Positions 3,229 to 55,546 of a stretch of 55,546 nucleotides of DNA are shown piece by piece. The stretch is taken from the NCBI GenBank assembly GCA_008632985.1, contig QPGO01000218.1:62001-117546 (forward strand). The letters run 5' to 3'. The translations under genes were made by a program, and so were the position numbers. The notes under the pieces were generated by a model that was given only the letters and a program-made list of their open reading frames with translations, had not been told where the DNA came from and searched no databases. Source of the stretch: Psammoneis japonica. Its lineage: Eukaryota. Each line of letters starts with the position of its first letter. The stretch's first letter is position 1.

Positions 3229-11043
<7,815 letters not shown>

Positions 11044-22763: not shown

Positions 22764-23864
22764 CGTGGTACCACCTCCAATTTAGCGGTTGGCTCTTGCC
22801 ATTTGCTATTGTATCATTTTGCAGAACCCTTGAGAATCCACGAAGGCAAAGAAAAGATCCAGCATAGTACCACCCACCCACCCCTCCTCGCACGACCTAC
22901 AGACTGCAGACACCCAGCCACCGGCCGCATCTTGAAGAATCTCACGAAGGCCTAAACTTGTGCTTTTCGCTAACTTGCCGTCATCAATCAAAGAGTCTAT
23001 CACAAGCGTTAGAAGTCGCCTAAAGCTCATCGAGTTGAATACAATGGCTATCCAGCAGTTCCTCACATCCAGCCACGGTTACATAATGAGTAGGATTTGT
23101 ACAGTAGAATTCGTTGAAACACACTGTACGACGTCAGCAAGAACATCTGTTACACTTGGCAGTAGATCGAGATATGAGGCGTCATAGTCGTACAAACGTC
23201 GTATAGTCGTAGTGGGTAGAACCGACTTCAACTACGAGATACATCATCGCACATTGAACTTCCACAAGATGTCGTTCCCGCTGACGTTCATAACCTCACC
23301 GGTGTGATGCCGCTGCTGTTAGCAGCACATCCCAATGTAGAACGCACGAGCGAACGATGACGTGTCAAGTAAATCGAGACGAGCGATCTACAACGTGTCG
23401 GGTCCGTCAATCATGCACGGAAGTTTGCTTCAACCCTCATTTTTCATGAGATCTGAACTTTTGCAAAGGAAGACTCTCCAGCCATCTCGACACAAAGCAT
23501 CGCCAGTTGCAGCTGAGACAACATCTGCGGGGACCAGAATGCACTGGTCGCAGAGTCTGCAGAGACCGGGAAACACCGGTTGCAGATTTGTCATTTCGCA
23601 TTCATTGTCATTCATTGCACTCTTGACACACTGAAGATTCATTGCACACACTCGTCCAGAAAACACTGGAAGTGGACCCTGCAGTGACTGGGAACACCAG
23701 TTGCAGGTCGGATCATCTGCCATCTGTTGATCATGTTGACTTTACTCAGATTGTTCTCATTGCAAGTCTCATGGGTCGTCGTGTTATCTGGTGTGCACCT
23801 GTTGCTGCGTTGTTGGCTCAACTTGTCTTTGCGCAGTGTGAGCCTGCCGTTGCAAGCTGTCTCA

Positions 23865-24632
23865 TGGATGACAGCAACACCAGGCACCGAGACAACACAA
23901 ACAGACGTTTTGAGAAGCTTCATTGCAGGAATGGAAACGAGCACGTCTCTTGGGTTTGTTTGGTGTGTGACAGATTGTCAAAACCGTCTCAGACTGCTCG
24001 ACTTTCTGTCAATGGATTGAATGAAGCCAGACACCTGTCAACTCCATCTGAATGGAACCAAGTGTCGGAAGACCTGCAAGATTGTCATCGCATCGATGAC
24101 GACCATGTTCCACGGGATTGCCGATGGATTTCCAACCTGTCACTTTCACCAAGAGCTCGACATGTTGTTCCGAACGACAACAGAAGGTCTGAAGGATTCA
24201 CTTGTTGCAGGCCTTGTAAAAGAAGTCTCTGCACTGCTTCTATGTCTTGTGGATGACAGCAACACCAGGCACCGAGACAATGTAAACAGACGTTTTGAGA
24301 AGCTTCATTGCAGGAATGGAAACGAGCACGTCCCTTGGGTTTGTCAGGTGTGTGACAGTTTGTTAAAACTGTCTCAGACCACTCGACTTTCCATCAATGG
24401 ATTGAATGAAGCCAGACACCTGTCAACTCCATCTGAATGGAACCAAGCATCGGAAGACCCACACGATTGTTGTCGCATCGATGACGACCACATTCCACGG
24501 GATTGCCGATGGATTTCCAACCTGCCACTTTCGCCAAGAGCTCGACACATTGTTCCGAACGACAACAGAAGGTCTGAAGGATTCACTTGTTGCAGGCCTT
24601 GCAAAAGAAGTCTCTGCACTGCTTCTGTGCCT
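23865..24632 (+). repeat. 385-bp tandem duplication within the Helitron (23865-24249 and 24250-24632)
   Basis: Both copies start tggatgacagcaacaccaggcaccgagac and align throughout, with about 15 differing sites. Confidence 0.97.
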
Positions 24633-27600
24633 CCGTGCGCAATGGCAAATGATTGCTGTTTTGGAACACCACCACCTGAATTATCGTGTCTTACCGAAGC
24701 AGAACTAGCTTCATCGACACCTGTGAAAACACATGGCTGCTGCTTCAGTTTTGTCGGTGGCAAACAGAAGAAACTGCAAGGTGGTCTTTCCCATTGCAAG
24801 ATAAACACAAAGAGCATCGCCCGCACCATTGTGCACTTTGACGTGTTGAACCTTCATCAAAATGTGGTTGTGTTGGCATCCGGCAAAATGACACCAGAGC
24901 AAAGGCGAATGGCCAGACAAAAGAACAAAATCAGGACTCACCATGTAATGAGAGCACTAGAATGGCTTGTCCATCACCACGAGAATTGGATGAATCAAGA
25001 CATCGATCTAGAGGAAGTGCGAAGTAATTTACAGAATCCAGTTTTAGTGGACAATGGCAGTTTAGACGAAAGCGAAAATGCAAACATTGAAACCACGGAG
25101 TCCCACAGTGTTCATTTCCCCGATGGCACCGTTTCTTCAACAACTGGTGGACAACGTAATTTAGACAGCTTCAAAGACTTGGTGCACGATGCAGCTGCAA
25201 GCGGTTTTGACATTGAATTCAAAGCTGATCTTTTGAAAGAATCAGTCAGTGACTTTAAGGACAACAACCTGGCAAATGCTTGCTTGCTGCAATTTCCTTG
25301 TGGGCGTGGCGGCATTGATGAAACAAGAATGAAAGAAGACGGGAGTCTCGCCGACTGTGCAAATCTAGCACATTGCGCAGATCACTTGGCCCGCATTTCT
25401 CAGCCCCATTTCCACAAGCAACTCTTTGTTCTGACCCTGTGCAATCTGACTGTGAAGCAACGAATGGTGCACAGTGCTGGATGGAAAGCAAGAGACAAAA
25501 ATCAAGCCAGACAATTCTCAAATGAACTGACACAAGACGACATCGACAGACCGGTGAACGCAGGAATTGCACATTGGGACATCGTTTCTTAAGTGCAGTG
25601 GATGTGGTGTCGGCATCTGTTCCACATGCAAATGAAGCAGCAAAAAAAATGAGAAGAAATGCTGAAACCTGCCAACACCACTTTGGACAACCTGGAGCAT
25701 TTTTAACGACAAGCCCCGATGATGCCAATTCCTTTTTAGTTCAAATTCACACGGACATGCTCATCGACAAAGGCAGAGATGTGACAGAAATGTCGGATGA
25801 AGAATTGGCCGAAAAGGCCAAGGCAAGAAACGAGCTTCGTGTGGAGCACCCGGGTGTCACGGCTTTTGCATTCGAAATGTCATTGGAAATCGTCACAGAA
25901 GAAGCAACAGGATGGGACTTAAAAAGGAATTCACCCAGAGAAGATTTTGAATTCTACGTGGGGAGACCCTCCGCTTTCATAGCTGCAATGGAAGAACAAG
26001 GTAGACTCTCGGCACACGGTCACATTCAGGCATGGTTTGAAGACACAAACACAGCAAGAGACAATCTGCATTCTGACAACAGAGATTTTAGGCGTGATGG
26101 TAAAAGAACACTGTCCAAACTGACCAGTCGGATCTGCACAACTGGGTTGATGTGCAGCGAGGATTGCACTCGACTGTCCATCATAGAGACTTTTGATCAT
26201 GATTGCACTGTTAATCTTGCCTGTCGTGCTGTGCCTAAAATGGTCAGCAATCAGCAGCTTCGATGCCCAAGGCACAAGCACGGTCAGAAATCAAAAAACG
26301 GCATGTTCGCGCATTGCCCTCATTGTGCTAAATGCTGGACAAACCCAGAGTTTGTGGCATGTTATTTGTTGAGTGACAACCGCGTCCCTGGTCTGACTGC
26401 TTGTCCAGACAACACAACAAAGAGACTTGAAGCCATGTGCACTCAGTGTCAACAATCCGATGAGAATGGGACAATCGAGCCATGCACTCCAGATGCTGCA
26501 TGCAGCCATCACATGCATGCCAACATCGCTTGTTTTTCTAAGCTGAAACAATTTCCAAAAAATGGAAAAAATTCCGAGAATGAAATGACCACTGGTGGAA
26601 GCGCGCGCAAGCGTAAATTGCACGAGATGCAAAATGCCGATTGCCGTTTCAATCTCCCCGCTGCACACAGCAAATGCAATGTAATCAGGAAAGCTCATGA
26701 TGCAAAAATTAAGTGGTTCTCTTGGGATGGCTCATTCCGTTGTAGATGCGTCAAAGAAATTGTCCCCAAGAGGAGAAAATGCGATGCTTTCCAGAATGTG
26801 TCGTGCCCTGCAATCAGCAGATCTAAGCTGACATGCAACACAAACATCGCAACTCTGATGCCAGGCCCCTCTGCACAGTGCACCATTGAGCACACACTCA
26901 AAGACACCCAAAAGGACGACACTGCCACTTGCCAAGAAGTGCTGAATGTCACTGACAAACTGGTGACAGAGCTTAGAAAGCATTCTTCTGATGCAGCGGA
27001 AACTGTAAGAAGATTGCTCTGGAGTGCTCATGCTCACAACAAAACCAACGTCATCAGACCGCCGCTTGCATCGTGCATTGCAAGAAACAGTGGGCGTTTT
27101 CTAACTTCTCATCAAACTGCATGGTGTCCACTCAAAGACATCACAAACATGCTAGAGAACGAAACAGTGTCTGCAATGGTTTCGCATTTCGGGGAGACTC
27201 CGTTCTGTCAATGTTTGGCCTTACATTGTTTGTGTCGACCCACACAAATGGAACATCTGAGTCCGTTTGTGTTCTGCAGAGCCCAAGTCTTCCACTTTCA
27301 AAGCCTGTTTAAAGGACCCAACCCAACAGATGACAGCTGAGGAAAAAGAGAAACACATGCTCGGACTGAAAGTGGCCCAACTGCCATTCACAATGAACAA
27401 TGCGACTGCAGGACACAAGCTTCAAGGAAGCGGTGTCGACAATGTGTTTGTGCACAGCTGGAGCTGTGCACAAAACTGGGCACATGTCATGCTCTCCAGG
27501 GTTGAGACCAGAAATGGTCTGCATCTTTGGCAACCGCTGAAGAGAGATTTAAGTCTGTGCAGACTGCCGGACGGGCATGACGCCCTGCTCCGGTTGATGG

Positions 27601-27662
27601 AAGGAAGAAGTGTCACATGCTTCACCAACGAACAGCATGATGACATTTTGCAGTCCAATTGA
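23865..27662 (+). mobile_element. Decayed Helitron-like RepHel element (DUF6570-like region, HUH Rep, C-terminal Pif1 helicase fragment)
   Basis: Motifs LSPRAR...MANDCCFGTPPPELSCLTEAE, LLQFPCGRGG, FGQPGAFLTTSPDD, EEQGRLSAHGHI (HUH), CRFNLP, degenerate motif 3 QCTIEHTLK, and Pif1 end NATAGHKLQG...AHVMLSRVETRNGL. Termini not identified. Confidence 0.85.
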
Positions 27663-28461
27663 CAAATGGAACATTTTGATGCTGCATGTGGGAATTGTTT
27701 CTACATTTTGGAAAATGTTCCAGGCTTCACACGCGGGCTTGCAGGCGTGCCCGGCAACAACCGACAGAAAACAAAGGGTCCAATCTAATGAATCGGTGTT
27801 GGCACATTGTTGCAATGATGGACACACTCAGCAACCAGTGATGCACAACGTTGGGACAGTTCTCTTGTCATCCACCATAGAACGATCACACCAGAATCAT
27901 CAAAAAGGGGAAACCCACGTCTCTTCTTGTGACACATCCATGCACGAACACAAAAATTAAATCGCCATTTTTTGACACAACATTGGAACATTGATGTAGA
28001 ATCACGTCGCACATTAATTGATTGCGAACCCATCATTCAAGCGTGTGAATTTTTTAAAAAATGATTGGTGGCAAGTAAAGATCAAAGCTCTAAAATTTGA
28101 TGCTCGCGCGCATGGCAATCCAAACCAGCCCGGGTTCCACACCTCCTCACTTCGTGTCCAGAGTTCCCACCACAAAGGAGGAACCAACATGAGCCAATCT
28201 AGAGAGTTGCGCATCCGAAGGCAGCATGTGTAATTCTGGAGCACATGAGTCTTCGATGGCATTTAGACAAATGGCAACTCTAGGCGCACACCGTGTTGCA
28301 TCTAAGAAACTGTGACAAATTTTTGAGCTTTAACAACAGCCACACGTCCCGCTCTCCGCTCATCAATTCCGCGGCAGACTGTCATTTCGCCATGCCCCAA
28401 GTCGGAAATGAATCTTCAAACGAAGTCCCGGAACTTTCAACTCACAATGTGTCACATGCAG

Positions 28462-28875
28462 TTGGGGCTCACAAGAGATTTCAAGAAAGATTTTCGCTTT
28501 TTTTGAAAACCAGCCCTTGTCTTTCTTGTGGTCAATCACTTCACTGCACTTGGTTGGTGGTTCTGCGGAAAGATTCATTCCTTCTAACTTGATCTTTTTT
28601 GAACCGATTTCGTCATCCAATCCACAATCGTCATCCATCACCTTGACATGAAGGACCATGTTGTCGAGGCCAGGAATGTCTTCAAAAGTGAACGTTTCAC
28701 CGCACTCAGGATTCAAGTCGTTCTCCTTCTTGCTGGAAGTCTTCTTGCCGTATCCCTTGTCAAACAACATGTTGTCCTGCTCGAGTTCAAACTTTACATG
28801 TGGATCAGACTTTCCAATTTTGTCGGCATCGCGAAGGTCTGTGATCTTGTCGAGAAGGACGGTTGGCACGCCCAT
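28462..28875 (-). pseudogene. C2-domain protein gene, mutated by TA->TG/CA changes (probable stop loss)
   Basis: MGVPTVLLDKITDLRDADKIGKSDPHVKF...NDLNPECGETFTF...VKVMDDD..DDEIG is a C2 fold with the canonical DPYV read as DPHV. The probable original stop TAA now reads CAA at 28462-28464. Confidence 0.75.
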
Positions 28876-29295
28876 GGTTGCAATGTCTTTTGAACTCGCA
28901 TGCCAAGCTCTTCCCGTTTCGGTTGCTCTTGCTTTGCTCTCGGTTTGTATTATGGTTATGGTCGCTGGTGTCTGGTGTCGCCAAAAATGAACGGGAATCA
29001 TCAATCTAAAAATCTCACAAAAGATCGCGATCCTTTTGGCGGGAAACGCAATTGATTGTGTATATAATTTATGTACAAGAATGAAGATTTCATTACGTGG
29101 ATACTCATAAGAATTAAAACATTCAGCACTGAATAGTAAATACAAACTGAAAGAAACTGCTTTTTCGCCTTTCTCGCTCATTTCTCCAAAAATGTTGGCG
29201 GAAAGGTGGTCGAATTTGTTTTTGCATTATTCTGGATTTTTGATCTGGCTTGTCCTTCCTGTCGCATTCCCATCTCTCACCATTATTTGCGCATC

Positions 29296-29955: not shown

Positions 29956-30030
29956 ACACCAAGCAGGAGTTCCTTGCATGACGCATACAAATATCATTCA
30001 CCACGCTCAAAAACGCCTGACCATTCTAGC

Positions 30031-31572: not shown

Positions 31573-31689
31573 CTTGCTTAGGACTCGCTTCCCTTTGTCA
31601 TTGTCGTGATATGTACCGCATTGAGATATGAGAAAAAAAAAGTACAGTATCAACGCACGTGTCTGGCCGTCGTTTACGTCACGAAAGAC

Positions 31690-33330
31690 AACGAGCAAGA
31701 ACATCATGACATGCATGCTGTCAACTCTTGGTGTCGGTGGCATGGTCGCGCTGCGACTCTCCCGGCACTGCAGCTGTGCTCACATTTGGGGAAATAGCAT
31801 GATTTTCTGAATTTCACTGTGGTGAAAATTGACAAGCACGCAACAAGCATGGTGGTGCACCAGGGTTTTGTTTCCTTGTCGCCCTCCCTCCTCGATGTTG
31901 CCTTCGTGCACACATCAAAGGCCAGGTGCTGCACCTTGGTGCAGAGCATGTTTTTGAGAACAGGACAAGCTGCCATCATGGGCAGATTGTCTGCACAAAC
32001 TGTTTTTGTTGCTTTGAACATGGGGGGCACTGCAAAAGGGGGCCCTTTTCTTTGACACTTTGTGGCTGTTTCTGAGAGTGCACATGCGGCGGGAAATGGC
32101 AACCACACACGCAACTTCTTGCACTGTCATTTCACTTGCAAAAATTCTCTTGCTGTTGTTGAGCAAAACAGTGCATTGTCTCTCTCAGTTTGGCCAGAGT
32201 TTGAGAAGAGGAGCTTGGTTCCCAGCTTCCAGGCTCTTTTGTCTGTGGCTTGAGTTGTCATCAAAGATTGACAAAAGTGCTGAACAGCAACCTCCACCTC
32301 ACTGCTGGGGTGCTGTTGGGGCACCACTTGCACAATGGCCCTGTGTGTGCAAAAGAGAACACCCCCAGAGAGAGAGACATGTTTGTTTTGTGGGCAGCCA
32401 AAGGAGAGGTTGTTGTGGCAGCAGGTTCACAAGAAAGCCAGCTGTCTTTGGGTTGATCAAGCTGCATTATTTTTGTCAGCAAGTGCCACACCATGATGTG
32501 TGTGCAGAAGGCTTGCAGCTCTGTGCACACAGCGTTGCAGAGAAAACTCTCAGCACTGCTGCACAAGTTTTTTGGCTGTGTTGTGCATGATGTGATTTTT
32601 GCAAATTCCCTCAACCTGAATGCTGATGCACATGTGCATGTAGTGCAGCACATTTTACACAACAACCAGCAGCCCACACAACTGTCAGCAAACACAGCAG
32701 GGGCAAAAGTTGTTGGCTCACCGAGAGGGGCAGGCCTCTGCTCCTGCCTCCTGCATCTGACTCAACCACCAGCACATGAGCCAATGGCACCGATGAAGTG
32801 AACAAACACTGATGCAGTAGAAAGGACACGCCAACACCTTCTTGTGGATAAGAGTGAGTGTAACAAAGCCAACGTGAACCCAATCGTTGCGCCTTGGTGC
32901 ATGAGATGCAGGCCTCTGCTCCTGCCTCCTGCGTCTGACTCAACCAGCACATGAGCCAATGGCACCGATGAAGTGAACAAACACTGATGCAGTAGAAAGG
33001 GCAAGCCAACACCTTCTTGTGGATAAGAGTGAGTGCAATGAAGCCAACGTGAACCCAATCGTTGCACCATGGTGCATGAGATGCAGGCCTCTGCTCCTCC
33101 TGCCTCCTGTGTCTCTGACTCAACCAGCACACGAGCCAATGGCACCGATGAAGTGAACAAACACTGATGCAGTAGAAAGGACAAGCCAACACCTTCTTGT
33201 GGATAAGAGTGAGTGTAATAAAGCCAACGTGAACCTAATCGTTGCGCCTTGGTGCATGAGATGCACCAACAAGGGTGGTGAGAATGACACGGTCACACAA
33301 GTGACGAGGGACAGACCACTGCTGGACCAC
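31690..33330. repeat. TpA-depleted degenerate repeat or TE remnant between TGS1 and the next gene
   Basis: Abrupt loss of TA, TG/CA-rich sequence, Cys/His-rich spurious ORFs. Contains a tandem array. Confidence 0.7.
32730..33265. repeat. Three tandem copies of a ~177-bp unit (starts 32730, 32908, 33083)
   Basis: The unit gcaggcctctgctcc...gagccaatggcaccgatgaagtgaacaaacactgatgcagtagaaagg...ggtgcatgagat occurs three times. Confidence 0.97.
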
Positions 33331-33455
33331 CCATTAATTTTTTGTCTCGTTCCTGGGGGGCGGAAGGGGTGAGGGGTGCAAAACAAAAAGGAAGAAGCGA
33401 TACTGTAGATAGAGTTACCATAGTTATCGATCAAGCCCCACTGGTGTCACTCGAA

Positions 33456-34772: not shown

Positions 34773-34842
34773 GCAGTCGAGATGACGATAGTGAAAAGAA
34801 TAAAAAATAGCATCATGATGATTAGAATCGGAGAACAACGAG

Positions 34843-38115: not shown

Positions 38116-38181
38116 CTATACCCCAAAACTTGTCATACTTCAATCTCTATATAACAAACTCTAAGGGTGTAAAACTCAAGT

Positions 38182-46070: not shown

Positions 46071-47808
46071 TGCCAATCCTGAGCTTGCTGTGTGGCTTGC
46101 AAACACATTTCCTCTGTGCCATCATCTGCTTTTGCCATGTCAACCAGGTGCAGAAGCCAAAAGGTCAAAGGGAGCGCAAGACCCACAACTCAACCCAAGT
46201 TGAGAACACAAATCCACCATGTTGTTCACAATCATCAGCACATCTTACACTGCAATGTTGACTGTCCATCCTGCAAAAACTGCCTTTCACCACAATGTCC
46301 CAACACACTCCTTTGCACAAGTCATCAATTGGTTGGCCTCAGGAGGCACATCAAAAAGCATGATGGGAGGACGACACTTGGAAACCATGCCATTTAAACT
46401 CTGCCAACAAATGACCACCATTGCTGTTGAGCAAAGCACAACCCCATTTCACATGCCCAACCTTGCAACATTTCCATGGTTTAATCTGCTTTTTCTCATT
46501 CTGCACAAAGCTTGCACTCTCAGGGTTTTTGTTGAAACCACAAGTGTCCAACACATGCAATGCCACCTTGGCAACATTGGAGCAATTGCCACCCCCAGTG
46601 CAACCTGCTGATGTGTGTCTTTCAAGACATGCCAACATTCCTTCTTGGTGCCTTCTGTTGGTGTTGCAACCAACAACTTGTCCTTTTCTTTGTCATGGGT
46701 GTTGTGAGCATCCTTGCCAAACCCATCTTCTTTGTTGGCAATTTCTTCTGGGACAATCATCATGCCACAGGATGCTTTTGCCATCTCAACAGTGCCAGCA
46801 AACCAACCACAATGACATTGAAGCACCTCTCCTTCATCTTGATGAATGTGTGCTGACTGCTTTCAAGCCTTGACTGCCTGAACATGTGAGCACATCTTCT
46901 TCTCATTTGCATCAAACAAAGTTGACTTGACAATTTCCAACAGCACCACCACACCCCCCCACTCTTTCACCACTCTTGCACACTCTGTTGCTGCTCCTTC
47001 AATCTTGTGACAAAGGCCTTTGCACAGTGTCCCACAATTGCGTTGAATGCCCTTGCCTTCTGTGTCTTGTAGAATGTGATCTGTTCACACATGGTGATCA
47101 CATTGCTTGCCCCAGATTGTCTTGTCCTTCTTCAATGTGGCATCTCCCAATGAACACTCTGGCTCTTTTGTGGCATGCTCTCCTGCCTCAGTGATGCCAG
47201 CACCTGCATCTCCAGCCCAAACATTCTTCCAACACACTTGCTGATCTTCTTGACGGTTTCTGTGCAACCATCTGCCTGTGAACCCAACTCAGCAATGGCA
47301 TCATGCACCCACTCCTTTGAATCTTTTGTGCTTCTGCATCTGGCGCAGTCCTTGAGATTGTTTCTTTGCCCTTGTCCACCAGCTGGCTTGTTTGTTGCCA
47401 CAATCTGCCACATGAGACATGCCTTTGGATTCTTGATGACTTCCCAGCCCCCATGCTCTTGTTCCTGATGACTTCTCAGCCTTTTCCTTTGACCCACACT
47501 GCTCCTTTGAGTGTCATGCTGTGACTTTTTAGCTTCTGTGTTGGAGTTTCACAGCTTGCCGACTGGCACATGTTTGGTCTTGCCAACCCCAAACTCACTG
47601 TGTGGCTTGCAAACACAACCCCAATGCTTGTCATCTGCTGTTGCCATGTCAGCCAGTGCAGAAGCTAAAAAGTGAGCAGAAGACCTGCAACTCAACCCCA
47701 AGTCATGAATGCAAATCTGCCACAAAGTCCACAGTCATCAGTGCATCATGCACTGCAACATTGTTTGTCTGTCTTGCAAAAACTGCCTCTCACCAAAATG
47801 TTCCAACA
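46071..47808. repeat. Diverged ~230-bp direct repeats (46071-46305 and 47581-47808)
   Basis: Shared blocks ctgtgtggcttgcaaacaca, ttgccatgtca, gtgcagaagc, caactcaaccc and tgcaaaaactgcct.tcacca.aatgt.ccaaca. Confidence 0.85.
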
Positions 47809-48979
47809 GCACCTCTTGAGCCACAGCAACCTCAATCTTTTCTTTCACCAACTGCACATTGCATGCAGATGAGTCAAGAGTGAGTTTTTGCTTGCAGTTT
47901 GTTCCCTTTCTCATTGCCACACCCGCATGGCTTCTTTGGCACTGCAGTGGTGATGACTTGTGTGGCTGCCACTGGTGGCTCCACTGCACTGTCTGGTGCT
48001 TCAGCATTGGTCACTGCCCCAAGAACTCCTCCTCTTTTCAGAGCAGCTCAGCTGTGTAGACTCCTGTCTACCTTTTCTCTAGTTCCTTTTTTCTGGAGAA
48101 GGGCTGGCTCTGGCCATCTCAGAGGACTCCCACCCCCATTTGGTTGGCACAACTCTCAAAGCAGCAGGGCAGTCTCAGCTCTGATCTTGCCTCTGATGAC
48201 ACTGCCATGGCAGCTGGATTGTCTGCAATGGCAAGCAGTCTGGCAAATGCCACTGCAGCACTTTTCACATGCATCCTTGTTGCTGACAATGGTGTTCAGC
48301 TCTCCCCTGTGGCCCATCTGAGTGCTGTGCTGCTCAAGCAAAGCTCATCAGTGGCAAGGCAATTCTGTTGGCTTGGGTGCACACCTCACCTTCCTCTGTT
48401 GTGGCAGCCACTTGGCCTGACTCTGTCATTGTGGCAGCCTCTGGTCCAAGTGTTGCAGCCACCAGTGCCACCCATGTTGTCTTGCCAAAGTTGTGGAGTG
48501 CAACATGCCCATGCTGAATGCTGGCTCTGGGACATGCTGTGCCTCCATCATCTGCCTCTCCTTGTTGTCTGCCAGCCATGTCATTCATGCATGACTCATG
48601 TCATTCTTTCAGTTCTCTAAAACTGTCAGACTCTTTCAGCCATGCCTTTGTTGTGTGTGCTTTGACAAGACCCAAGCCCTTTCTTGGCTGGCGGTTCACA
48701 GCAGCACCCCAGCAGCAGACATCAGCTGCCTTTTGGCTTTGTTTGCAGGCTCTGTCTTTGGCAGTCATGTGGTCCTTGCCCAGAGCACTGTGAGAGTGAC
48801 TTGCCAGTTCCATCCCAACCTTTTGGAGGCCCAGGCAGGTGCAAAGATCCAGTGCACTCTCTCTCAAATGAGGCCTGAGTGTGCCAACTGTTTGATGTGC
48901 AGCTTCATCAAATCAGTGATGCAGAGCACTGCAGCCATGCCAGCATCACATCACACCAATCAGACCCCACCTGCATTGC

Positions 48980-51850
48980 GCAAGTGAAAAAAATGGATTG
49001 GTGCTCTCATGACCAATCTTTTGTTGGCTTCACACCCAGAAAAAGCAATTGCTCTGCAGAATTCTGTGGCAATTTGGTGCTGAGCTTAGCCAAGACTTTT
49101 CTGTCTCCCCAACAGCAATCCCCAACCTCACATTCATGACTGCAGCATTGGTGCAACAAAGTGAATTGGAAGAAAGAACTCCTGTTGTTGTCTCTGTTGA
49201 AAGAGGCCCGCGACAATGCTCCAAGTGCTTTCAGCAACAAAAAATGTGGAGTCAACCTTTGCCACTTTCCAACAGGTTCAAGAAGTGCCAAGACTGTGAA
49301 ACTTCATTGTTGGAGACCAGTTTGTTGTTGGGCCAAGTGTGGGTGACTTTCAGAGACTGCCTCATGAAAAAAAGCTGAAACCATTTTGCTCTAAAAAATG
49401 ACTGCCTCAACCAAAAGCAAAGTTTGTTGAGGTGGAGTCTGGCTCACATGTGGTTGAGCACAGTGGCAACAAAGAGTCACTGCAAGGTGTGCTGAAAGAG
49501 GTGCCCCCCCCCCCAGCTGCAAAAAAGTGTGCATGGAAAAGATTCTATGTTTTGTGAGTTGCGTGGCATCTGTGCAGCACAAAGATCATCAATGGCAAGA
49601 TGTTGAGCAGTGGGAACATGACAACACACACAAACATCAGTCTTTCTTATCTCACTCTTTTCTTGTGGGGAGAAACAGGTGATGGCCTCATGTGAAAGGG
49701 GGGAAGGACCAAAAATTGCTGAGGGTGGGGTTGAAAACAGCTGCCAAAAATTGTTTCAGAAAGTGTTTTGAAAGGTGCTCATTCTTGCCATGTCTGCCGT
49801 GCATTGACAACAGTTTTGTGCCAAAGGGATGAAGTGCCGCTTCTGAATGGAAGCTCCACAACCAGTCAATTGGCAACAACTGCACATGTGCTTGCAGGCT
49901 CTGTCACTTGCAACCTTGTTTTGCTGGATCAAGATGAGTCCAAGTGCTGCAAGTGCTGGATTGTCAGCTTGGCCAACATTGCCATCAAAGCTTTCAGAGC
50001 ACATGGGGGGCTGGTTCTTCATCAGATGCAAGAATTGCACTTGGGATGATTGCCATGTGTTGCTGGAAGCAACAGCCAGAATTGTTTGGACTTGAAGAAG
50101 AACCTGCCATCTGCACACCAGTCAAGAAGCTGTTTGGGTTGAATGAACAACCCAGGCCTTGATGATGGCAAAAAAGCAGTGCTGCCATTGGCAATCTTGG
50201 CAAAAAACCAAAGAATGACTCAATGGAGGGCAAAGCTTTTTGAAGTGGAGCCCAACTCATGTGCAGTTGAGCACAACAATGACAAAGAGGAGCCACTGCA
50301 AGGATGACTTAAAGTGGTGCTCCCAGTTGCAAAAAAGGTGAGCAAAGAAAATTCCGCACAGCTCCAAGCTGAGAAGGAGTCTTGTCCAGAGCTGCTTGGC
50401 ATCTGCACAAAGAGTTTCCATTTGCACTGTGCAAGCAAAACAGCAAAGTGTGCAAGGCTGGACACAATTGTCTGCTGTCCACACCAGACTCTTTGGTGAG
50501 GTCTGCATGTGCACCCTTGCCCACTGTCTTTTGTGCGCGCACCATTGTTCTTGATCATTTTGTTGAACCCCGCCATGACCAACATGAGAAAGTGCCACTT
50601 GATCTTGTTTTGCACTCTTTCCCTGTTGTGTGCAATGGATGATGGCTGCAGAAGAGACAGACTAAATCACCAAAGGCAAGATTGAAGACACCACAAAATT
50701 GTCTCAAAAGCATTGGAAGGTGCCCATTCTTGCTGCAGGGCACAAAAAAAAGTTTCTGGGAGAGAAACACCACAAAGAAGGGAGAAGCCACTTTTCTGAC
50801 AATTTTGCAGTTGCTTGGTCTGGTGAAGCAAGATGCTTTGCATTGCAACATGCCGTTGACAGCACTGCCAAAGCAACCAGCAATGGGCACAATGTGTGTG
50901 CTGCAAATGTGCACCAACAGCCTCCACACACCCAAGAGCAGCATTTCAATGTGAAGGTGTGGCAACAGATCTGTCATTTTTGTCACAAGAGTCTCTTGAA
51001 CTTGCCCTTGGAATGCTCCAAAGAAGCAAAAACTGCTGGCTGTCCGGAGCAACTCATTGTCAAATTTGTCAAAAGCACGCTTTGCTCCAGTGTGCAACTT
51101 TGCACATGAAGGGTCGTGTGTGTGCAATGCAAAACTCCATTTTTTTGTCTTTTGGTGTGCAGGGGGGTTCATTGATGGTGGCACTGTGCCACAAAACACA
51201 AAAAGTTGCACATTTTAGAGAAAAAGTTGCAGCACTGTGTTGTCAAGCAACTCAACTGGCTGCATGGCATTTTTCATGCTTTGCAATTTCCCCTCTGAGA
51301 AAAGAACTTCAACTTTGATGATGTGACATGCCAGATGTGCACAAAAAGCTGCAAAATGTTTCAGAGATCTGAGCTGGAAAGCACCCCCAACTGACTTGAT
51401 GCTTGTTTGCACTTCTCATTTTTGCCAATCACCAGCTGCAAGAAGGTGTTGCTCAAAACAGTCTGCTGGGCATGGCAGCACATCATGGGCAGGGGCAGGG
51501 CATTCTTCCACCAGCTCAACGTGCCAGTGTTCAACTCCCCACAATGCGTTGCTGGTGACTCTGCAGAAGTTGAAAAGTCTGGCATCCTTTGAGAATTTTT
51601 CTCAATGCTTTGAGCTGTCAGCCCCAAGCACAGATGATGATGCACCATGGACAACTGCAAAAAATGTTTTTGTTGTTCTCCAGGGCACAACGTGGAGAAG
51701 AACACCAAGCATGAGCTGCTCTGGGGGAGAACTTAGATTTCCTGTTGCACATCAGATTGATGAAAAATCCATGGCGCAAACCTCAGCAGCCAATGACTTC
51801 TCATCGAGGTTGCAGTTGCCACCCTAAAACCACCACTTGTGCTGGTCTTC
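48980..51850 (-). mobile_element. Possible decayed Plavaka-like DNA transposase remnant
   Basis: Scattered minus-strand fragments (CGELNTG, FDKFDNELLRTASSFCFFGAF, VWRLLVHI, FGDLVCLFCSH, ESFDGNVGQ...LIQQNKVASD) recall the motif order of Plavaka-type transposases. Heavily degenerate, recognised by eye only. Confidence 0.35.
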
Positions 51851-52699
51851 AAAAGCTCCCACACAGCTTGGCTTGAGCATGTGCAGTGCACGGCAAAGGA
51901 GGGAGGCTGCAATCATGAGTTGCTTGCCAAAGAGGAGGATGCAATCAAACACTGTTTCTTCCAGCACTTTTTGTTTTTGGTCCTGTGAGCTTGAGTGGCT
52001 TGTGCATGTCAAGCACAAAAACAGGACAGATGGACAAGTGGCAGATTGGGCTGTTTTTTTTTTTGCTGCGTGCGCAACATTTGGTGAAGTCAACCTCACT
52101 TGGCAAAGTTGACAGTCATCTCTTGATGACATTTGACATCATTGATGACTCTGCTGTGATGATCCTCATTGCCTCTCAATGAATTCAGCAGGGCTGTCTG
52201 CAGCATGCATTGTCAAGCAGGAAGAAGCACACATGTTTTCACAACTGCACATTGTTGCGTGCATCAGTTGCACTGCAATCATGGGTGCATGCAAAGGACA
52301 GACAAATCACACAGATTTGATCAGATGTCAAAAACTGCAAATGTCATCAATCAATGATGTTGACACACAATTTGTCAGTGCTTGTTGCACTGCAATCAGA
52401 TTTTCTGAATGGCCTTTGGAGCAAATGGCACACTTTGGGCCGTTGAGAGCTCCTTCAGAGAAATCCAAAATTGCAGCACAAAAAATCCAATCTCATGATT
52501 TTCTGCTTTTTGTGATTTGCTCCACTTTCATTTGCACTCATTCTTCAAGCATGGTGCATTGTGTGCATGCACCACAGAAGGCAAGTGCACAAAATTGAAG
52601 CTTTCACCCAATGCGACTGATGCCAAGTCTTCTGTCAAGTGAGGGACAGTTGCTCTGGTGCCCCTGAAAATGATTTCCAAGCCAAAGTTGCTCAAATGA

Positions 52700-55546
52700 A
52701 GCCAGTGCCTCAAGATGGAGCAATCTTTTTATCCTGAAGACAAGAAGAGTTGCACCCACACAATCAATGTCAAGAACTGCAACCAGCGGGGAGTCTGCTC
52801 CAAGTGTGTCAAATTCTTGAAGACTTGCCATTGATGCTTGGTTGGCCAGAACATGCAAAAGCAAGCCAACAAGTTCCATCTGATGCAATCAATGAAAAAC
52901 AGCAAGTTTCCAAGTGCATCAAATTCTTGAAGACTTGCTGTCAACTTTTGGATGGACAAAATGTGCAGAAGCAAGCCAACAAGTTCCATCTGATGCACAT
53001 GTTGTTGCAGGAGATGCTCTCCAAGTTTTTGAGAACAAGGCTGCAAAAACACATTTGCTTCAAAGAGGCAAAGACGCCTTTGAAAAATGCCTGTGTTTCC
53101 TTTCCAACCATGTTTCCCCCAAAGAGTGCACTTCAAAATCAGAAACGGCATCTGTGGCATGATCTCAAGAAGCCATCAGAGACCATGAAGATCTGCAAAG
53201 CTGCCACTTGGACTCAGGAAGGAATGAACAAATGTCTCAAGTTCCACCCTCTTTTTGTGCCAAAGCAGAATCTAGAGGACAAAGATGAGCTTGAGAACAT
53301 TGTCTGCAACCTTGCACCTCATTGATGGTGCTGTCAGTCAAGCTCACAAGGTCTGGAAGTTCACATTTGACTGGACTAATGTCAAATCTGATCACAACAG
53401 CAAGGCTGGGTTAAAGTCAAAGATGGGCTCAATTGCAGCTCCAAAAATGGTTGCCAATCTGGTGCCGAACATTCTGATTCCAAGATGTGGTTCAATCATT
53501 GCACATGGGCCACTCATGACATGGATCAATGTTGGGTTGATGGAAGACTGGCAAACTGATGCTGAGAGAACTTTGAACAAAACCCAAAACAGCAATGTTC
53601 AAATGGCAATTGCAGGTGGTCTTGCATTGTGACACTGAAAATGCCTTTCCAAAGGAAGAGTTGAATGCCATGATCACTCAGCCAGTCAACAAAACCCTCA
53701 AGACAAGTTCCTTGACATGTGACAAAAAGCACAAGGGCAGACATTCTGACTGTGATGCACTTGGCAAAGAAAACTTCCAATTTGAGTGCAAATGATGCAC
53801 AGTTGTTTTGAAAAATGACCAGCTTCTGTTGAGGAGTCTTGCACATGACTGGATGTCAGCAAGCCCAGAAAAGGCCAAAGCAACTCACACAGGTCCAGCA
53901 GTCATTGCTCACATGAACCCCTCTTTGAGAAAAGAGAGGGGTGAGACTCTGCATGTTCTTCTTGATGGTGAAACATCATCAACTGCAATTTTGTGCAAAT
54001 TCACGTGGAAATTGAGAACCAAAGAATCTGCCACCAAGACTTGGAAAACCAAGGGTGGACTCTTTGCAACTGACAGCAAATGCAAAATGCAGTTCTTGTC
54101 ACCTGAATTTGACAAGCACAAGCCCATTGACAAGACAACACATGCTCATGGCATGCCCTCTTCTTCGTGTTGATGTGATGTGATCATGGGACACAACCTG
54201 ATGAGCAGTCTTGGAGTCACACTCAGCTCCACAAATGTGATTAGAAGATGCTGTTGTGCCAACAAAGAATGTTGGCACTTTCTTTGATGCTGATGTCTTC
54301 AAGCTGATTGCCAACCACATTGAAGAGTCTGGTGCTGTGAATGGTCTCAATGGCAAGACCAATGGCACCAGGATCCTTGATGCCAACTGTCATGCTGGCA
54401 ACCTCATTGATGTGGCTGACAGCCACAGAGTCACATCTCACCCCAGGAGAACAGAAGCAACTGAACTCTCTTTTAAAAAGATTTGAAAAGCTTTTTGACA
54501 GTTCCTCAGGTGTGTGGAAAGGAAAACCAGCAGATCTCATGTTGAAATTGGGCATGACTCCACATGATTTGGAGCCATTTCCCACACCACAAGCCTTGGA
54601 GGCAACTGCTTGAAAGGAAGCAGGCAGACTCTGTGAAGCAGGAGTCTCAAAGAAAAAAAATGGACCACTCTGAATGGGCAGCTCCAACCTTTGTTCAACC
54701 CAGGAAAAATGATCAAGTTCGGTTCCCACCCAACTTTTAAAGAGCTGAGAGGGAGGCTGATGTGCACTCCACACCCTTTGCCCAATGTTTGGGATGCACT
54801 GCAGAAACTTGAAGGTTTCATGCATGTGACCTCATTTGATTTGACCACGAGATGCTGTCACATCAAGCTGACATGGGGTGCATGTGTCATTTGTGCATGA
54901 TGGTGATGCTGCAGGGCAAATGTGAATGTTGCAGACTCCTTGTGAGAATTTCCCCCCATCATTTTTTGAGAACACATGGGCAAACTCATGGCAGGTTTAG
55001 AGTTTGTCAAAACTTGCTGTGTTGATGTCATGCTGTGCCTGACAAAAAGTGACTTCAAAGATCAACTCCAGAAACTTGAGGAGACATTCACATGGCTCAA
55101 ACAAGCCAGTTTGAAGGTCAGTTCCAAGAAGTCCTTTTCAGCTGAGCATGATGCAGACTGTCCAGGCTTTCATGTCACCCAAAATGGTGTTGCACCACCC
55201 CCCATGAAAGTGGGGGCAATTCAAGCAACTGCAACTCCCAAAACTCACAAGGAGCTGCAATGTTTTGTTTGTGTGGTCAATTGTTGTCAAGACATGTGGC
55301 CTCAACAATCTCATGCACTTGCTCTCCTCTTGCCAAACTCACCCAAACAAAGGTTGAGTGGCAATGGATGAGCACGGAACAAAAAGCTTTCAAAAATGTG
55401 AAGAGTTGTGTCAAAGGACGTGTCATCATCACACCCAAATTTTGACAAACTCTTTGAGCAGTGTGCCAAAGGAAAAAAATTCTAAACTGGGAGCAGTCAC
55501 ATCACAAAACAATCAACCTGTTGCTTTCCACCGCTGCAGGTTAAAT
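52700..55546 (+). mobile_element. Decayed Ty3/Gypsy LTR retrotransposon (gag-protease-RT-start of RNase H), running off the window end
   Basis: gag-like FPPKSALQNQKRHL..LKKP; protease LHVLLDGETSS...WKTKGGLFAT...PEF; RT SEWAAPTF, PHPLPNVWDALQKLEGFMHVTSFDLTTRCCHIKL and LMAGLEFVKTCCVDV; RNase H start LGAVTSQNNQPVAF. Confidence 0.88.
52801..52997 (+). repeat. 110-bp-period tandem duplication in the gag region
   Basis: caagtg..tcaaattcttgaagacttgc...aagcaagccaacaagttccatctgatgca occurs at 52801 and 52911. Confidence 0.9.

What the first reader, a model, noticed from the sequence alone, without database searches (positions are those of the whole stretch)
23400..55546. Candidate RIP-like genome defence: repeat-targeted TpA->TpG/CpA (A->G) hypermutation
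Seen: in the repeat domains (about 23400-28900, 31690-33330, 44220-end, also 1-460) TA is nearly absent while TG/CA is abundant, and flanking genes have normal TA. Conserved Tyr in the Helitron and Gypsy proteins read as Cys or His (FPCGRGG, AHVMLSR, PHPLP, CCHIKL), i.e. TAY->TGY/CAY. Known: fungal RIP and 5mC deamination are C->T processes; RIP creates TpA, and CpG decay does not consume it. Inference: a process converts A:T to G:C at TpA on both strands, only in repeats. Candidate mechanisms are a DNA-acting adenosine deaminase (TadA/ADAT-like), a mutagenic modified base, or Pol eta-type error-prone repair in methylated chromatin. I know of no description of this in diatoms.
Basis: partly seen in the sequence, partly recalled or inferred. 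Interest (0 to 1): 0.95.

Follow-up and report, generated by a model that had tools for sequence, protein, structure and literature searches.

The report
TpA-erasing hypermutation of diatom transposons
In this diatom-like genome, transposon DNA has had nearly every TA step rewritten to TG or CA, on top of ordinary CpG decay; this unusual A-to-G mutation process has so far been reported only in one 2026 preprint on an unrelated alga.

Summary
In 44220-55546, TA o/e is 0.05 and CG o/e 0.10, with TG/CA about 1.8-2.0 (flanks 0.57-0.60 and about 1.0). Edges are sharp to about 100 bp and the YpR total is unchanged, so only transitions are involved. Independent accurate-read contigs hold the same sequence, so it is not a long-read artefact.

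Polarity is shown. Conserved Tyr survives at 1 of 19 columns (Cys 10, His 4) in the Helitron and Gypsy proteins. Two tandem copies inside the Helitron differ by nine TG<->CA double changes (null mean 0.33).

New here:
- The process prefers 5'-TAY-3' (TAT, TAC >> TAG > TAA).
- It runs far ahead of CpG decay in the young Helitron.
- It covers a single-copy flank.
- It recurs in an unrelated environmental contig whose flanking gene is diatom-like.

The claim of no precedent is outdated: a 2026 preprint shows de novo TpA-only A:T>G:C hypermutation of integrated viruses in Bigelowiella natans. My seven searches found no description in diatoms. The enzyme is unknown; DNA adenine deamination is the leading guess.

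The parts
1..460 (.). Edge of a TA/CG-depleted repeat remnant, cut by the window start
   Evidence: TA o/e 0.16 and CG o/e 0.16, with 4 TA and 5 CG in 460 bp. Counts become normal from about 500.
23400..28340 (+). Helitron, multi-copy at least in its 3' part. TA is strongly depleted and CpG only mildly.
   Evidence: Pfam finds DUF6570 (24021-25592, E 2.8e-14) and Helitron_like_N (25526-27340, E 8.2e-9). There are 24 relatives at 26-46% identity. TA o/e is 0.18 and CG 0.64. X1 depth is 1148-1486 over 27001-28334 against about 57 at single copy. Conserved Tyr is kept at 1 of 9 columns.
23858..24626 (+). Internal tandem duplication (2 x 384 bp, 92.4% identical) that records mutation since the duplication
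   Evidence: There are 29 differing bases. Eighteen form 9 TG<->CA double sites, 3 are TA<->CA, 2 are CpG-type and 6 are other. The permutation null has mean 0.33 and maximum 4 in 20,000. Site classes: 0 TA/TA, 14 CG/CG.
26879..26893 (+). Pair of nearly invariant Tyr (residues 452 and 456 of ORF 25526-27340), now Cys (TGC) and His (CAC). I take them to be the catalytic Tyr pair of the Rep domain; that assignment is recalled, not tested.
   Evidence: Y452 and Y456 are nearly invariant among the 16 relatives in alignment A1. The window codons are TGC and CAC. The invariant His329/His331 are kept.
27261..27662 (+). C-terminal helicase remnant of the Helitron, with AHVMLSR
   Evidence: The ORF is and the peptide lies at 27480-27500. 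Pfam gives no hit. That the motif is a Tyr-containing helicase motif is recalled, not tested.
28345..28900 (-). TA-depleted stretch at single-copy depth with normal CpG, carrying a C2-domain ORF (28363-28821). It is either leakage of the process beyond the repeat or a captured fragment.
   Evidence: It has 3 TA against 21.3 expected (Poisson p 1e-6), and no gene window of equal size has fewer than 7. CG is 27 against 32.5 expected. X1 depth is 69 for the bin, and one contig at depth 50.6 has 0 differences. Pfam C2 scores E 2.1e-10. It reads SDPHVK where the aligned synaptotagmin structures have SDPY/FVK.
31690..33330 (.). Unclassified TA/CG-depleted non-coding element between two host genes, with roughly 178-bp tandem units at 32730-33265
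   Evidence: TA o/e is 0.14 and CG 0.30. The direct repeats are 93% identical. Their differences include 4 TA<->TG/CA, 5 CG<->TG/CA and 1 TG<->CA pair. X1 depth is 64-70.
44220..55546 (.). Main domain of degraded mobile DNA, essentially free of TA and CG. It runs off the window end.
   Evidence: TA o/e is 0.05 (39 TA) and CG 0.10 (61 CG), with TG 1.97 and CA 1.75. No credible Pfam domain appears in 150 ORF pieces. X1 depth is about 57-65 over 44343-45676 and 654-686 over 45677-47000.
53800..55546 (+). Ty3/Gypsy remnant (protease, RT, start of RNase H) with frameshifts, continuing beyond the window
   Evidence: tblastn with 16 intact relatives gives hits only here. The relatives carry RVP/RVT_1/RT_RNaseH/Integrase_H2C2/rve. 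ORF 54970-55368 has 815 hits at E<=1e-3. Conserved Tyr is kept at 0 of 10 columns (C 6, H 3, F 1) and Arg at 3 of 12 (Q 4 as CAA, W 1 as TGG, C 1 as TGC, K 2, E 1).

Best explanation
Shown. Mobile-element DNA in this diatom-like nuclear genome has undergone a domain-restricted mutational process that turns TpA into TpG or CpA (A:T to G:C). It acts on both strands, is fastest where the adenine is followed by a pyrimidine (5'-TAY-3'), and acted after an internal duplication arose within the Helitron. A slower CpG to TpG/CpA decay is superimposed.

Consequences. The TpA process hardly creates stop codons and removes TAA and TAG, so it leaves long open frames. It still kills the proteins by turning Tyr into Cys or His, including the nearly invariant Tyr pair of the Helitron Rep.

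Inferred. The agent is an enzyme recruited to silenced or foreign chromatin. The most likely candidate is a DNA-acting adenine deaminase of the TadA/ADAT2 fold (A to inosine, which is read as G). This would be the same kind of process seen de novo in Bigelowiella natans. CpG loss would be ordinary 5-methylcytosine deamination in methylated transposons.
For: Composition and budget.
- TA o/e is 0.05-0.18 inside the domains against 0.57-0.60 outside.
- Edges are sharp.
- The YpR total is about 24% inside and outside.

Reality.
- X1 contigs at single-copy depth match the depleted domains at 96.6-100%.
- A second island was found in an independent metagenome assembly, L032 5501-8500. Its TA o/e is 0.03-0.06 with normal flanks, and it has no blastn similarity to the window. 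The best named relative of its flanking gene is Seminavis robusta at 49% identity.

Polarity.
- Helitron: Tyr kept at 1 of 9 columns against 152 of 204 for other residues, p 2e-4. The replacement codons are TGC, TGT and CAC.
- Gypsy: Tyr kept at 0 of 10 against 107 of 172, p 1e-4.

Action after the duplication, on both strands.
- Nine TG<->CA double differences lie between the tandem copies (null mean 0.33).
- There are 0 TA/TA sites against 14 CG/CG sites, so these pairs derive from TA.

Context.
- Sites where both strands read TAY (RTAY) retain 1 TA in total across the four domains.
- Residual TA lies in YTAR at 36 of 66 sites (Helitron) and 29 of 39 (main domain), against 261 of 1401 in genes (p 3e-10 and 2e-13).
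- Products partition as predicted: OR 2.4 (p 9e-16), 2.0 and 3.5, against 1.29 in genes.
- The hazard fit orders TAT, TAC >> TAG > TAA, with LRT chi2 of 70 and 67 on 3 df.
- L032 replicates this: 7 of 8 residual TA are YTAR (p 4e-5) and the product OR is 1.84 (p 0.01).
- GC o/e rises to 1.33 and AT falls to 0.78, as TAC>TGC and TAT>TGT predict.

Precedent. In the B. natans mutation-accumulation lines, 231 of 302 mutations fell in two integrated viral regions. All but one were A>G or T>C, and those all lay at TpA. An ADAT2-like candidate was named (bioRxiv 10.64898/2026.01.13.699255; Results and Discussion read).
Against: - No enzyme, modified base or de novo event was observed here.
- No whole genome is held, so neither the proteome nor genome-wide targeting could be examined.
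- The runs test found no strand-coordinated clustering of TG versus CA outcomes (z 0.21, p 0.83). A processive single-strand deaminase might have left such clustering.
- The gene-based background used for the context expectations is not the true ancestral TE composition. Genes themselves show a weak product partition (OR 1.29, p 0.001).
- The 31690-33330 domain shows no context effect (LRT 1.6; only 1 of 14 residual TA is YTAR).
- A>G on one strand cannot be told from T>C on the other, so the mutated base is unknown.
- Among the displayed single-copy-depth differences inside depleted domains, the window has the derived state at 7 sites and X1 at none. This could mean ongoing mutation, but also a small share of long-read miscalls at modified bases.
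- The L032/L034 island is not more diverged than its flank (0.81% against 1.76%). Activity is therefore not visible once TA is exhausted.
Confidence: 0.6

Rival explanations
1. Modified-thymine route. The T of R-T-A in silenced DNA is enzymatically modified, for example oxidised by a TET/JBP-type dioxygenase to 5-hydroxymethyl- or 5-formyluracil. It then mispairs with G, giving T>C, which is the same mutation read from the other strand.
For: The data fix only the motif TAY/RTA, not which base is hit. That dinoflagellate 5-hydroxymethyluracil sits preferentially at TpA, and that 5-formyluracil is mutagenic towards T>C, is recalled and not checked here.
Against: No call here supports a modified T. 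The only experimental precedent interprets the change as A deamination, also without proof. Illumina-type contigs read plain bases, so no stable odd base is implied.
Confidence: 0.15
2. Error-prone repair synthesis (Pol eta type) in methylated or heterochromatic DNA. Repeated excision repair in transposon chromatin inserts G opposite T.
For: The known Pol eta hotspot WA includes TA (recalled). CpG decay in the same domains implies frequent T:G repair.
Against: AA is not depleted: o/e is 1.30 in the main domain against 1.12-1.27 in genes, so the motif is TA and not WA. The young Helitron has lost most of its TA while CpG is only mildly reduced. Since the internal duplication, TA conversion is at least 0.875 per copy against 0.06 for CpG. 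TA loss therefore does not follow CpG repair. The single-copy flank has normal CpG.
Confidence: 0.07
3. RNA-level A-to-I editing of transposon transcripts (ADAR- or ADAT-like), fixed in the genome through reverse transcription.
For: U is favoured 5' of the edited A in ADAR editing (stated in the preprint's Discussion). The Gypsy element replicates through RNA.
Against: The Helitron is a DNA transposon and is affected. Both strands are hit: Tyr>Cys 10 and Tyr>His 4, and TG 11.4% against CA 11.7%. Tandem copies inside one element diverged by TG<->CA pairs. A flank at single-copy depth is affected. TAG is among the most resistant contexts, the opposite of the recalled ADAR 3'-G preference.
Confidence: 0.04
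4. Sequencing or assembly artefact. Modified bases in transposon DNA are miscalled by a long-read base-caller, so TA and CG are really present.
For: The window is a long-read-type assembly with homopolymer indel errors at six places. At 7 displayed single-copy-depth sites in the depleted domains the window has TG/CA where X1 has TA or CG, and the reverse occurs at none.
Against: X1 contigs match the depleted domains with 0 to 12 differences per 348-550 bp, far too few to restore TA. An unrelated metagenome contig, and its 98.8%-identical copy from another sample, show the same island. Five of 37 database relatives of the Gypsy ORF are also nearly Tyr-free.
Confidence: 0.03
5. Adaptive avoidance. 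The elements themselves evolved to avoid TA and CG, for example to escape a host nuclease or silencing reader, so the composition is selected rather than imposed by mutation.
For: Dinucleotide avoidance is known in viruses (search listings). Much of the multi-copy Helitron family appears to share the TA-poor state, because the high-depth contigs match at 85% or better.
Against: The changes destroy conserved residues, including the nearly invariant Rep Tyr pair and RT motifs. Non-coding domains and a neighbouring C2 ORF are affected. Shared TA loss among copies is also expected from a deterministic conversion, since YTAY always gives YTGY.
Confidence: 0.03

Closest known systems
TpA-restricted A:T>G:C hypermutation of integrated viral DNA in Bigelowiella natans (Mettrop et al., bioRxiv 10.64898/2026.01.13.699255, 2026)
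   Same: Transitions occur only at TpA and give TpG or CpA depending on the strand. They are confined to integrated foreign DNA beside normally mutating host DNA. The long-term footprint is TpA loss with CpA+TpG gain, and TpA-poor CDS are enriched for reverse transcriptase and DDE domains. An ADAT2-like deaminase was proposed.
   Different: That work is in a rhizarian alga and rests on de novo mutations in mutation-accumulation lines. Its targets are an NCLDV and a virophage that still hold 3.3% and 9.2% TpA. Here the host is diatom-like, the targets are a Helitron and a Gypsy element, depletion is near saturation, and the evidence is a historical footprint only. The main text of the preprint mentions no CpG, flanking-base context, Helitron or diatom.
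Fungal repeat-induced point mutation (RIP)
   Same: A mutational rather than purely epigenetic inactivation of mobile DNA. It involves dinucleotide-specific transitions on both strands and sharp domain edges, and may leak into neighbouring single-copy DNA.
   Different: RIP is C:G>T:A, mostly CpA>TpA, and so enriches TpA (abstract listing of PMC2621366). Here the direction is the reverse and TpA is erased. Dependence on duplication, and a C5-methyltransferase-like RID enzyme, could not be tested.
5-methylcytosine deamination (CpG decay) in methylated transposons
   Same: This explains the second half of the pattern: CG o/e 0.10-0.30 in the old domains, and Arg CGN read as CAA, TGG or TGC.
   Different: It cannot remove TpA. 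In the young Helitron and the single-copy flank, TpA is lost while CpG is mildly reduced or normal. That diatom transposons are CpG-methylated is recalled, not checked.
TadA/ADAT2-ADAT3 tRNA adenosine deaminases and the adenine base editors derived from them
   Same: T (U) lies 5' of the target adenine. The pyrimidine preference at +1 resembles the U-A-C of the bacterial tRNA-Arg anticodon loop (recalled). DNA activity of ADAT2 in amphioxus and trypanosomes is cited in the preprint.
   Different: No such enzyme was seen or tested here. The natural substrates are tRNA loops, not chromosomal DNA.
APOBEC3 and ADAR editing of retroelements in animals
   Same: Deaminase-based restriction that leaves dinucleotide-specific hypermutation in mobile elements.
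   Different: APOBEC gives C>U on minus-strand cDNA. ADAR acts on dsRNA and is recalled to prefer a 3' G. Both leave strand-asymmetric footprints in retroelements only. Here both strands and a DNA transposon are affected.

Membership tests
TpA-restricted hypermutation of integrated foreign DNA (B. natans type) | Changes are A>G or T>C transitions at TpA | tested here: met
   The YpR total is conserved. Tyr became TGY or CAY at 14 of 19 conserved columns. There are 9 TG<->CA and 3 TA<->CA sites between the tandem copies. This is a historical footprint, not de novo events.
TpA-restricted hypermutation of integrated foreign DNA (B. natans type) | Both strands are hit, giving TpG and CpA products | tested here: met
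   TG is 11.43% and CA 11.66% in the main domain. Tyr>Cys occurs 10 times and Tyr>His 4 times.
TpA-restricted hypermutation of integrated foreign DNA (B. natans type) | Confined to foreign or mobile DNA next to normal host DNA | tested here: met
   Edges are sharp within about 100 bp at six boundaries. The domains hold a Helitron and a Gypsy element.
TpA-restricted hypermutation of integrated foreign DNA (B. natans type) | Independent of copy number (the single-copy NCLDV is a target in B. natans) | tested here: inconclusive
   28345-28900 is at single-copy depth and TA-depleted, but it may be a fragment captured by the Helitron. There is no genome-wide view.
TpA-restricted hypermutation of integrated foreign DNA (B. 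natans type) | De novo, episodic occurrence in cultured lines at about 1000 times the background rate | not testable with these tools
   Only a lower bound is available from the tandem copies. Conversion is at least 0.875 per TA per copy, against 6 other differing bases in 384 columns.
Fungal RIP | C:G>T:A at CpA, creating TpA | tested here: not met
   TpA is erased (o/e 0.05) and CpA/TpG are enriched (o/e 1.75 and 1.97).
Fungal RIP | Requires duplicated sequence and a RID-type methyltransferase homologue | not testable with these tools
   No genome or proteome is held.
CpG decay by 5mC deamination | CpG loss with TpG/CpA gain, polarised from CGN codons | tested here: met
   CG o/e is 0.10. 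Arg is kept at 3 of 12 columns, and two of the three survivors are AGR codons. The losses read CAA x4, TGG and TGC. The presence of 5mC itself was not tested.
ADAR-type RNA hyperediting fixed by retrotransposition | Sense-strand A>G only, retroelements only, 3' G favoured | tested here: not met
   A Helitron is affected and both strands are hit. TAG is among the slowest contexts.
Pol eta WA-hotspot mutagenesis | A mutated after A or T (WA) | tested here: not met
   AA o/e is 1.30 in the main domain against 1.12-1.27 in genes.
TadA/ADAT2-like adenine deaminase acting on DNA | T at -1 and a pyrimidine at +1 of the target A | tested here: met
   The hazard order is TAT, TAC >> TAG > TAA. The RTAY class is emptied. 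L032 replicates the pattern. That this matches the enzyme's preference is recalled.
TadA/ADAT2-like adenine deaminase acting on DNA | An enzyme with this fold and DNA activity present in the organism | not testable with these tools
   No genome is held.
Helitron | Rep (HUH with a Tyr pair) plus a helicase | tested here: met
   Helitron_like_N scores E 8.2e-9 and DUF6570 E 2.8e-14. The invariant His329/331 are kept, while Tyr452/456 are replaced. Pfam does not recognise the helicase. The element termini were not determined.
Ty3/Gypsy LTR retrotransposon | Protease-RT-RNase H-integrase order, and LTRs | tested here: inconclusive
   Protease, RT and the start of RNase H are matched in that order by tblastn to relatives with the full order. 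The integrase and LTRs lie beyond the window or were not found.

The most novel reading that the evidence does not exclude
Diatoms and chlorarachniophytes share an ancient, RIP-like but chemically opposite genome defence. A chromatin-guided DNA adenine deaminase reads 5'-TAY-3' in silenced mobile or viral DNA and rewrites it to TGY on either strand. This kills proteins through Tyr>Cys/His while leaving reading frames open. The TAY motif and the footprint in environmental contigs would then give a direct handle for finding the enzyme, a natural DNA adenine editor, and for mapping the system across SAR lineages.
Probability: 0.35. Interest if true: 0.92.

Novelty: new member of a known kind. Interest (0 to 1): 0.78.

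Why it matters
Mutational genome defence was thought to be essentially fungal (RIP) and cytosine-based, and no natural enzyme that edits adenine in chromosomal DNA is established.

One 2026 preprint shows TpA-only A:T>G:C hypermutation in a rhizarian alga. This window shows the same footprint, driven to near completion, in transposons of a diatom-like genome, and it adds three usable facts:
- a 3'-pyrimidine context (TAY);
- kinetic separation from CpG decay;
- recurrence in an independent environmental contig with a diatom-like flanking gene.

If the process is shared, it affects several things:
- how diatom transposon landscapes and ages are read, because divergence-based dating will be wrong;
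- gene prediction, because dead elements keep long open reading frames and lack Tyr;
- the search for a natural DNA adenine deaminase.

Tried and rejected
- Whole genome: none is held. I therefore made no genome-wide scan, no TE family consensus and no deaminase search.
I scanned the 150 ORF pieces of at least 52 aa instead and found no credible domain in 44220-55546. The Gypsy identity came only from the exhaustive HMMER search and tblastn.
- Self-comparison of the window gave only 5 repeat pairs, so polarisation from within-window copies was limited to two tandem duplications.
- Strand-coordinated clustering: runs tests on the TG/CA outcome were null for the informative RY class (z 0.21). 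Only one of 16 tests was nominally significant (the RR class of the main domain, z -3.14).
- RNA: no RNA holder is listed for the stretch. X2 behaves as RNA because it skips GT..AG introns. It has no cover over the depleted domains, which I do not use as evidence on expression.
- L032 against L034: the island is not more diverged than its flank (0.81% against 1.76%), so there is no sign of continuing hypermutability there.
- Of the 41 metagenome loci, only 5 have a 1-kb window with TA o/e below 0.3 (L032, L034, L036, L037, L038), with L026 at 0.36. By their record names these fall into three metagenome records. The other 35 are ordinary.
- Earlier notes of this scan returned only phage cases that do not bear on this finding.
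- Literature: seven searches found no description in diatoms or other stramenopiles. They cover open-access papers and bioRxiv only.

Full report
**Observation.**
- TA observed/expected is 0.05 in 44220-55546 (39 TA in 11.3 kb), 0.18 in 23400-28340, 0.14 in 31690-33330 and 0.16 in 1-460. In the three gene blocks it is 0.57-0.60.
- TG and CA rise to 1.5-2.0.
- Counts per 100 bp place the edges within about 100 bp at 460, 23400, 28900, 31700, 33300 and 44250.
YpR steps are 23.5-24.5% of dinucleotides in genes and 24.0-25.7% in the depleted domains. In the main domain TA+CG falls from 9.6-10.0% to 0.88% while TG+CA rises from 13.9-14.5% to 23.1%. That is what transitions alone at TA and CG would produce.

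**Is it real?**
No whole genome is held. One study holds the stretch.
- Run X2 skips three short GT..AG introns, so it behaves as RNA.
- Run X1 has an even word depth of about 55-58. It agrees with X2 against the window at six homopolymer indels (35979, 37008, 37709, 37937, 38391, 39802). The window is therefore a long-read-type assembly and X1 an accurate-read data set.
- X1 contigs at single-copy depth cover 28418-28842 with 0 differences, 32043-32390 with 12, 44126-44490 with 5 and 44612-45160 with 7 plus 3 gaps. That is far too few to restore TA.

Limits of this check:
- X1 may come from the source organism, and its library type is not on record.
- Only 40 of 235 difference rows were printed.

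Among the 21 printed rows inside depleted domains, the window has CA/TG where the other sequence has TA at 6 sites, and where it has CG at 6 sites. The reverse occurs once. At single-copy depth the count is 7 to 0. This may reflect continuing mutation or a small share of miscalls at modified bases, and I cannot tell which.

**What the domains are.**
- 23400-28340 is a Helitron. Pfam finds DUF6570 and Helitron_like_N, and there are 24 relatives at 26-46% identity.
- Depth of 1148-1486 over 27001-28334 shows roughly twenty copies of its 3' part at 85% likeness or better.
- In 44220-55546, Pfam recognises nothing credible in 150 ORF pieces.
- An exhaustive HMMER search with ORF 54970-55368 found 815 relatives. 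The ten I scanned carry RVT_1, most also RT_RNaseH, and some also protease and integrase domains.
- tblastn with 16 of these relatives finds one remnant only, at 53800-55546 on the + strand. It runs protease, RT, start of RNase H, with frameshifts.
- 31690-33330 and 1-460 are unclassified.
- The host is diatom-like. The best named relatives of the DUF547 gene at 38358-39893 are Odontella aurita, Seminavis robusta and a Pseudo-nitzschia model, at 42-47% identity.

**Polarity.**
Where 16 Helitron relatives agree at 70% or more, the window keeps 152 of 204 non-Tyr residues but only 1 of 9 Tyr (Cys 4, His 1, Phe 2, Gln 1; Fisher p 2e-4).
- The replacement codons are TGC, TGT and CAC.
- The two nearly invariant Tyr452 and Tyr456 are now Cys and His, while the invariant His329/331 remain. 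I take these Tyr to be the Rep catalytic pair; that assignment is recalled, not tested.
- Other changes fit the same chemistry across codon borders: Lys>Glu, Thr>Ala and Ser>Gly, each preceded by T, plus Val>Ala as GCA and Leu>Pro as CCA.

Over the Gypsy remnant the picture is the same.
- Tyr is kept at 0 of 10 columns (Cys 6, His 3, Phe 1), against 107 of 172 for other residues (p 1e-4).
- Arg is kept at 3 of 12, and two of the three survivors are AGR codons without CpG. The losses read CAA four times, TGG once and TGC once.

So both TA>TG/CA and CG>TG/CA are polarised from functional ancestors.

**Action after the internal duplication, on both strands.**
The Helitron contains a 2 x 384-bp tandem duplication at 92.4% identity.
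- Of its 29 differing bases, 18 form nine adjacent TG<->CA double differences. Three are TA<->CA, two are CpG-type and six are other.
- Placing the same differences at random gives a mean of 0.33 such sites and never more than 4 in 20,000 trials.
- The two copies share 14 intact CG sites, show only 2 CG conversions, and have no site that is TA in both. The TG<->CA pairs must therefore descend from TA converted on opposite strands in the two copies.
- This gives at least 0.875 conversions per TA per copy, against 0.06 per CpG and six other differences in 384 columns. Since the duplication, TpA has mutated more than an order of magnitude faster than CpG and far faster than other bases.

**Context.**
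TA survival depends on its neighbours.
- Sites where both strands read TAY (R-TA-Y) retain 1 TA in the Helitron domain and 0 in the other three domains.
- Sites where neither strand does (Y-TA-R) hold 36 of 66 residual TA in the Helitron domain and 29 of 39 in the main domain, against 261 of 1401 in genes (p 3e-10 and 2e-13).
- Products sort as predicted for TAY>TGY. TG predominates in Y-YR-Y and CA in R-YR-R, with odds ratios 2.4 (p 9e-16), 2.0 and 3.5, against 1.29 in genes.
- A four-parameter hazard fit orders TAT, TAC >> TAG > TAA (LRT chi2 of 70 and 67 on 3 df). It is not significant for the small 31690-33330 domain.
- The rise of GC (o/e 1.33) and fall of AT (0.78) follow from TAC>TGC and TAT>TGT.
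- Tyr>His occurs mostly after a purine (3 of 4 cases). Tyr>Cys after a pyrimidine accounts for 7 of 8 pyrimidine-preceded cases. This is the expected direction, but the numbers are small.

Caveats:
- The background is gene DNA, not the true ancestral elements.
- The motif could equally be read as R-T-A with the T as the target.
- A runs test found no strand-coordinated clusters (z 0.21).

**Beyond repeats and beyond this window.**
- 28345-28900 lies at single-copy depth. It has 3 TA against 21.3 expected, while no gene window of that size has fewer than 7. Its CpG is normal, at 27 against 32.5 expected.
- That stretch carries a C2-domain ORF that reads SDPHVK where the aligned synaptotagmin C2 structures have Tyr or Phe. 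It is either leakage or a captured fragment.
- Five of 37 aligned database relatives of the Gypsy ORF have Cys or His at three or four of the four Tyr columns and almost no Tyr overall, while four of them keep most of their Arg. P0053 has 0 Tyr in 397 residues.
- I fetched 41 metagenome loci around relatives of P0053. Five have a 1-kb window with TA o/e below 0.3.
- L032 holds a 3-kb Gypsy RT/RNase H island (TA 0.03-0.06, CG 0.15-0.33) between normal flanks. It has no nucleotide similarity to the window.
- L032 repeats the context rule: 7 of 8 residual TA are YTAR (p 4e-5) and the product odds ratio is 1.84 (p 0.01). Its YpR total is conserved.
- Its flanking histidine-kinase gene is closest to Seminavis robusta among named sequences, at 49% identity.
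- L034 is the same locus from another sample at 98.8% identity, and its island is not more diverged than the flank (0.81% against 1.76%). That fits a process that stops when TA runs out.
- I cannot say whether L032 comes from a different species than the window.

**Comparison with what is known.**
Seven literature searches returned one relevant paper, bioRxiv 10.64898/2026.01.13.699255. I read its abstract, Results and Discussion and searched it for terms.
- In Bigelowiella natans mutation-accumulation lines, 231 of 302 nuclear mutations fell in an integrated NCLDV and a virophage.
- All but one were A>G or T>C, and those all lay at TpA. The rate was about 1000 times background, in only some lines.
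- TpA-poor CDS were enriched for reverse transcriptase and DDE domains, and an ADAT2-like protein was proposed.
- Its main text does not mention CpG, flanking context, Helitrons or diatoms.

The present case is therefore a new member of that just-described kind, in another SAR lineage and on transposons.
- It is not RIP, which makes TpA (listing).
- It is not ADAR-like, because a DNA transposon is affected, both strands are hit and TAG is resistant.
- It is not Pol eta-like, because AA is not depleted.
- CpG decay explains only the CG half.

**Mechanism and verdict.**
Shown: a TA-specific, domain-restricted, two-strand transition process with a TAY preference. It acted after a duplication internal to the Helitron and is faster than CpG decay.

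Inferred: enzymatic adenine deamination in DNA of silenced chromatin (my estimate is about 0.45 for the enzyme class), with a modified-thymine route as the main rival. A defence role is plausible but untested.

The process hardly makes stop codons and removes TAA and TAG. Dead elements therefore keep long open frames (523 and 604 aa in the Helitron), which will mislead gene callers and divergence-based TE dating.

Noticed in passing
window 35979, 37008, 37709, 37937, 38391, 39802: The window differs from both X1 (DNA) and X2 (RNA-like) by single-base homopolymer indels at these six places. These are probably residual long-read assembly errors, which would explain broken host reading frames in 35.4-39.9 kb.
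   Followed up: partly
window 28222, 28225, 32161, 32165, 32260, 32329, 32330: At single-copy-depth X1 contigs inside depleted domains, the window carries the derived TG/CA state and X1 the TA or CG state at 7 sites, and never the reverse, among the rows shown. This points to ongoing mutation between samples or haplotypes, or to a few long-read miscalls at modified bases.
   Followed up: partly
window 28363-28821 (-): A small C2-domain ORF lies next to the Helitron at single-copy depth. It is almost TA-free with normal CpG and has only one Tyr in 152 residues. It reads SDPHVK at the conserved SDPY/FVK position of the aligned synaptotagmin structures.
   Followed up: partly
window 24021-25592 and 25526-27340 (+): The Helitron keeps open frames of 523 and 604 aa although 8 of 9 conserved Tyr are gone. 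TA>TG/CA hardly creates stops and removes TAA and TAG, so an open frame is no sign of activity here.
   Followed up: yes
proteins P0027, P0053, P0033, P0048, P0025: These database relatives of the Gypsy ORF have Cys or His at the conserved Tyr columns and 0-0.9% Tyr overall, and four of the five keep most of their Arg. Their sources could not be traced.
   Followed up: partly
L032 5501-8500; L034 1-2500; also L036, L037, L038, L026: Environmental contigs that fall, by their record names, into three metagenome records carry TA-free or TA-poor Gypsy islands beside normal DNA. Several loci have TAY well below TAR, as in a partly mutated state.
   Followed up: yes
window 46029-46308 and 47539-47812; 45677-47000: A 285-bp direct repeat at 75% identity lies inside a stretch with X1 depth of about 654-686, roughly a dozen copies in the genome. 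It is possibly LTR-like and was not classified.
   Followed up: no
window 3229-11061 (-): A Prp8 gene is read in four long ORF pieces with short gaps. This and the three 76-87-nt GT..AG introns skipped by X2 show an intron-poor nuclear genome.
   Followed up: no
window gene blocks: Host DNA itself shows a weak version of the product partition (TG in Y-YR-Y, CA in R-YR-R; OR 1.29, p 0.001) and TA o/e of about 0.57-0.60. This may be codon bias or a low genome-wide level of the same process.
   Followed up: no
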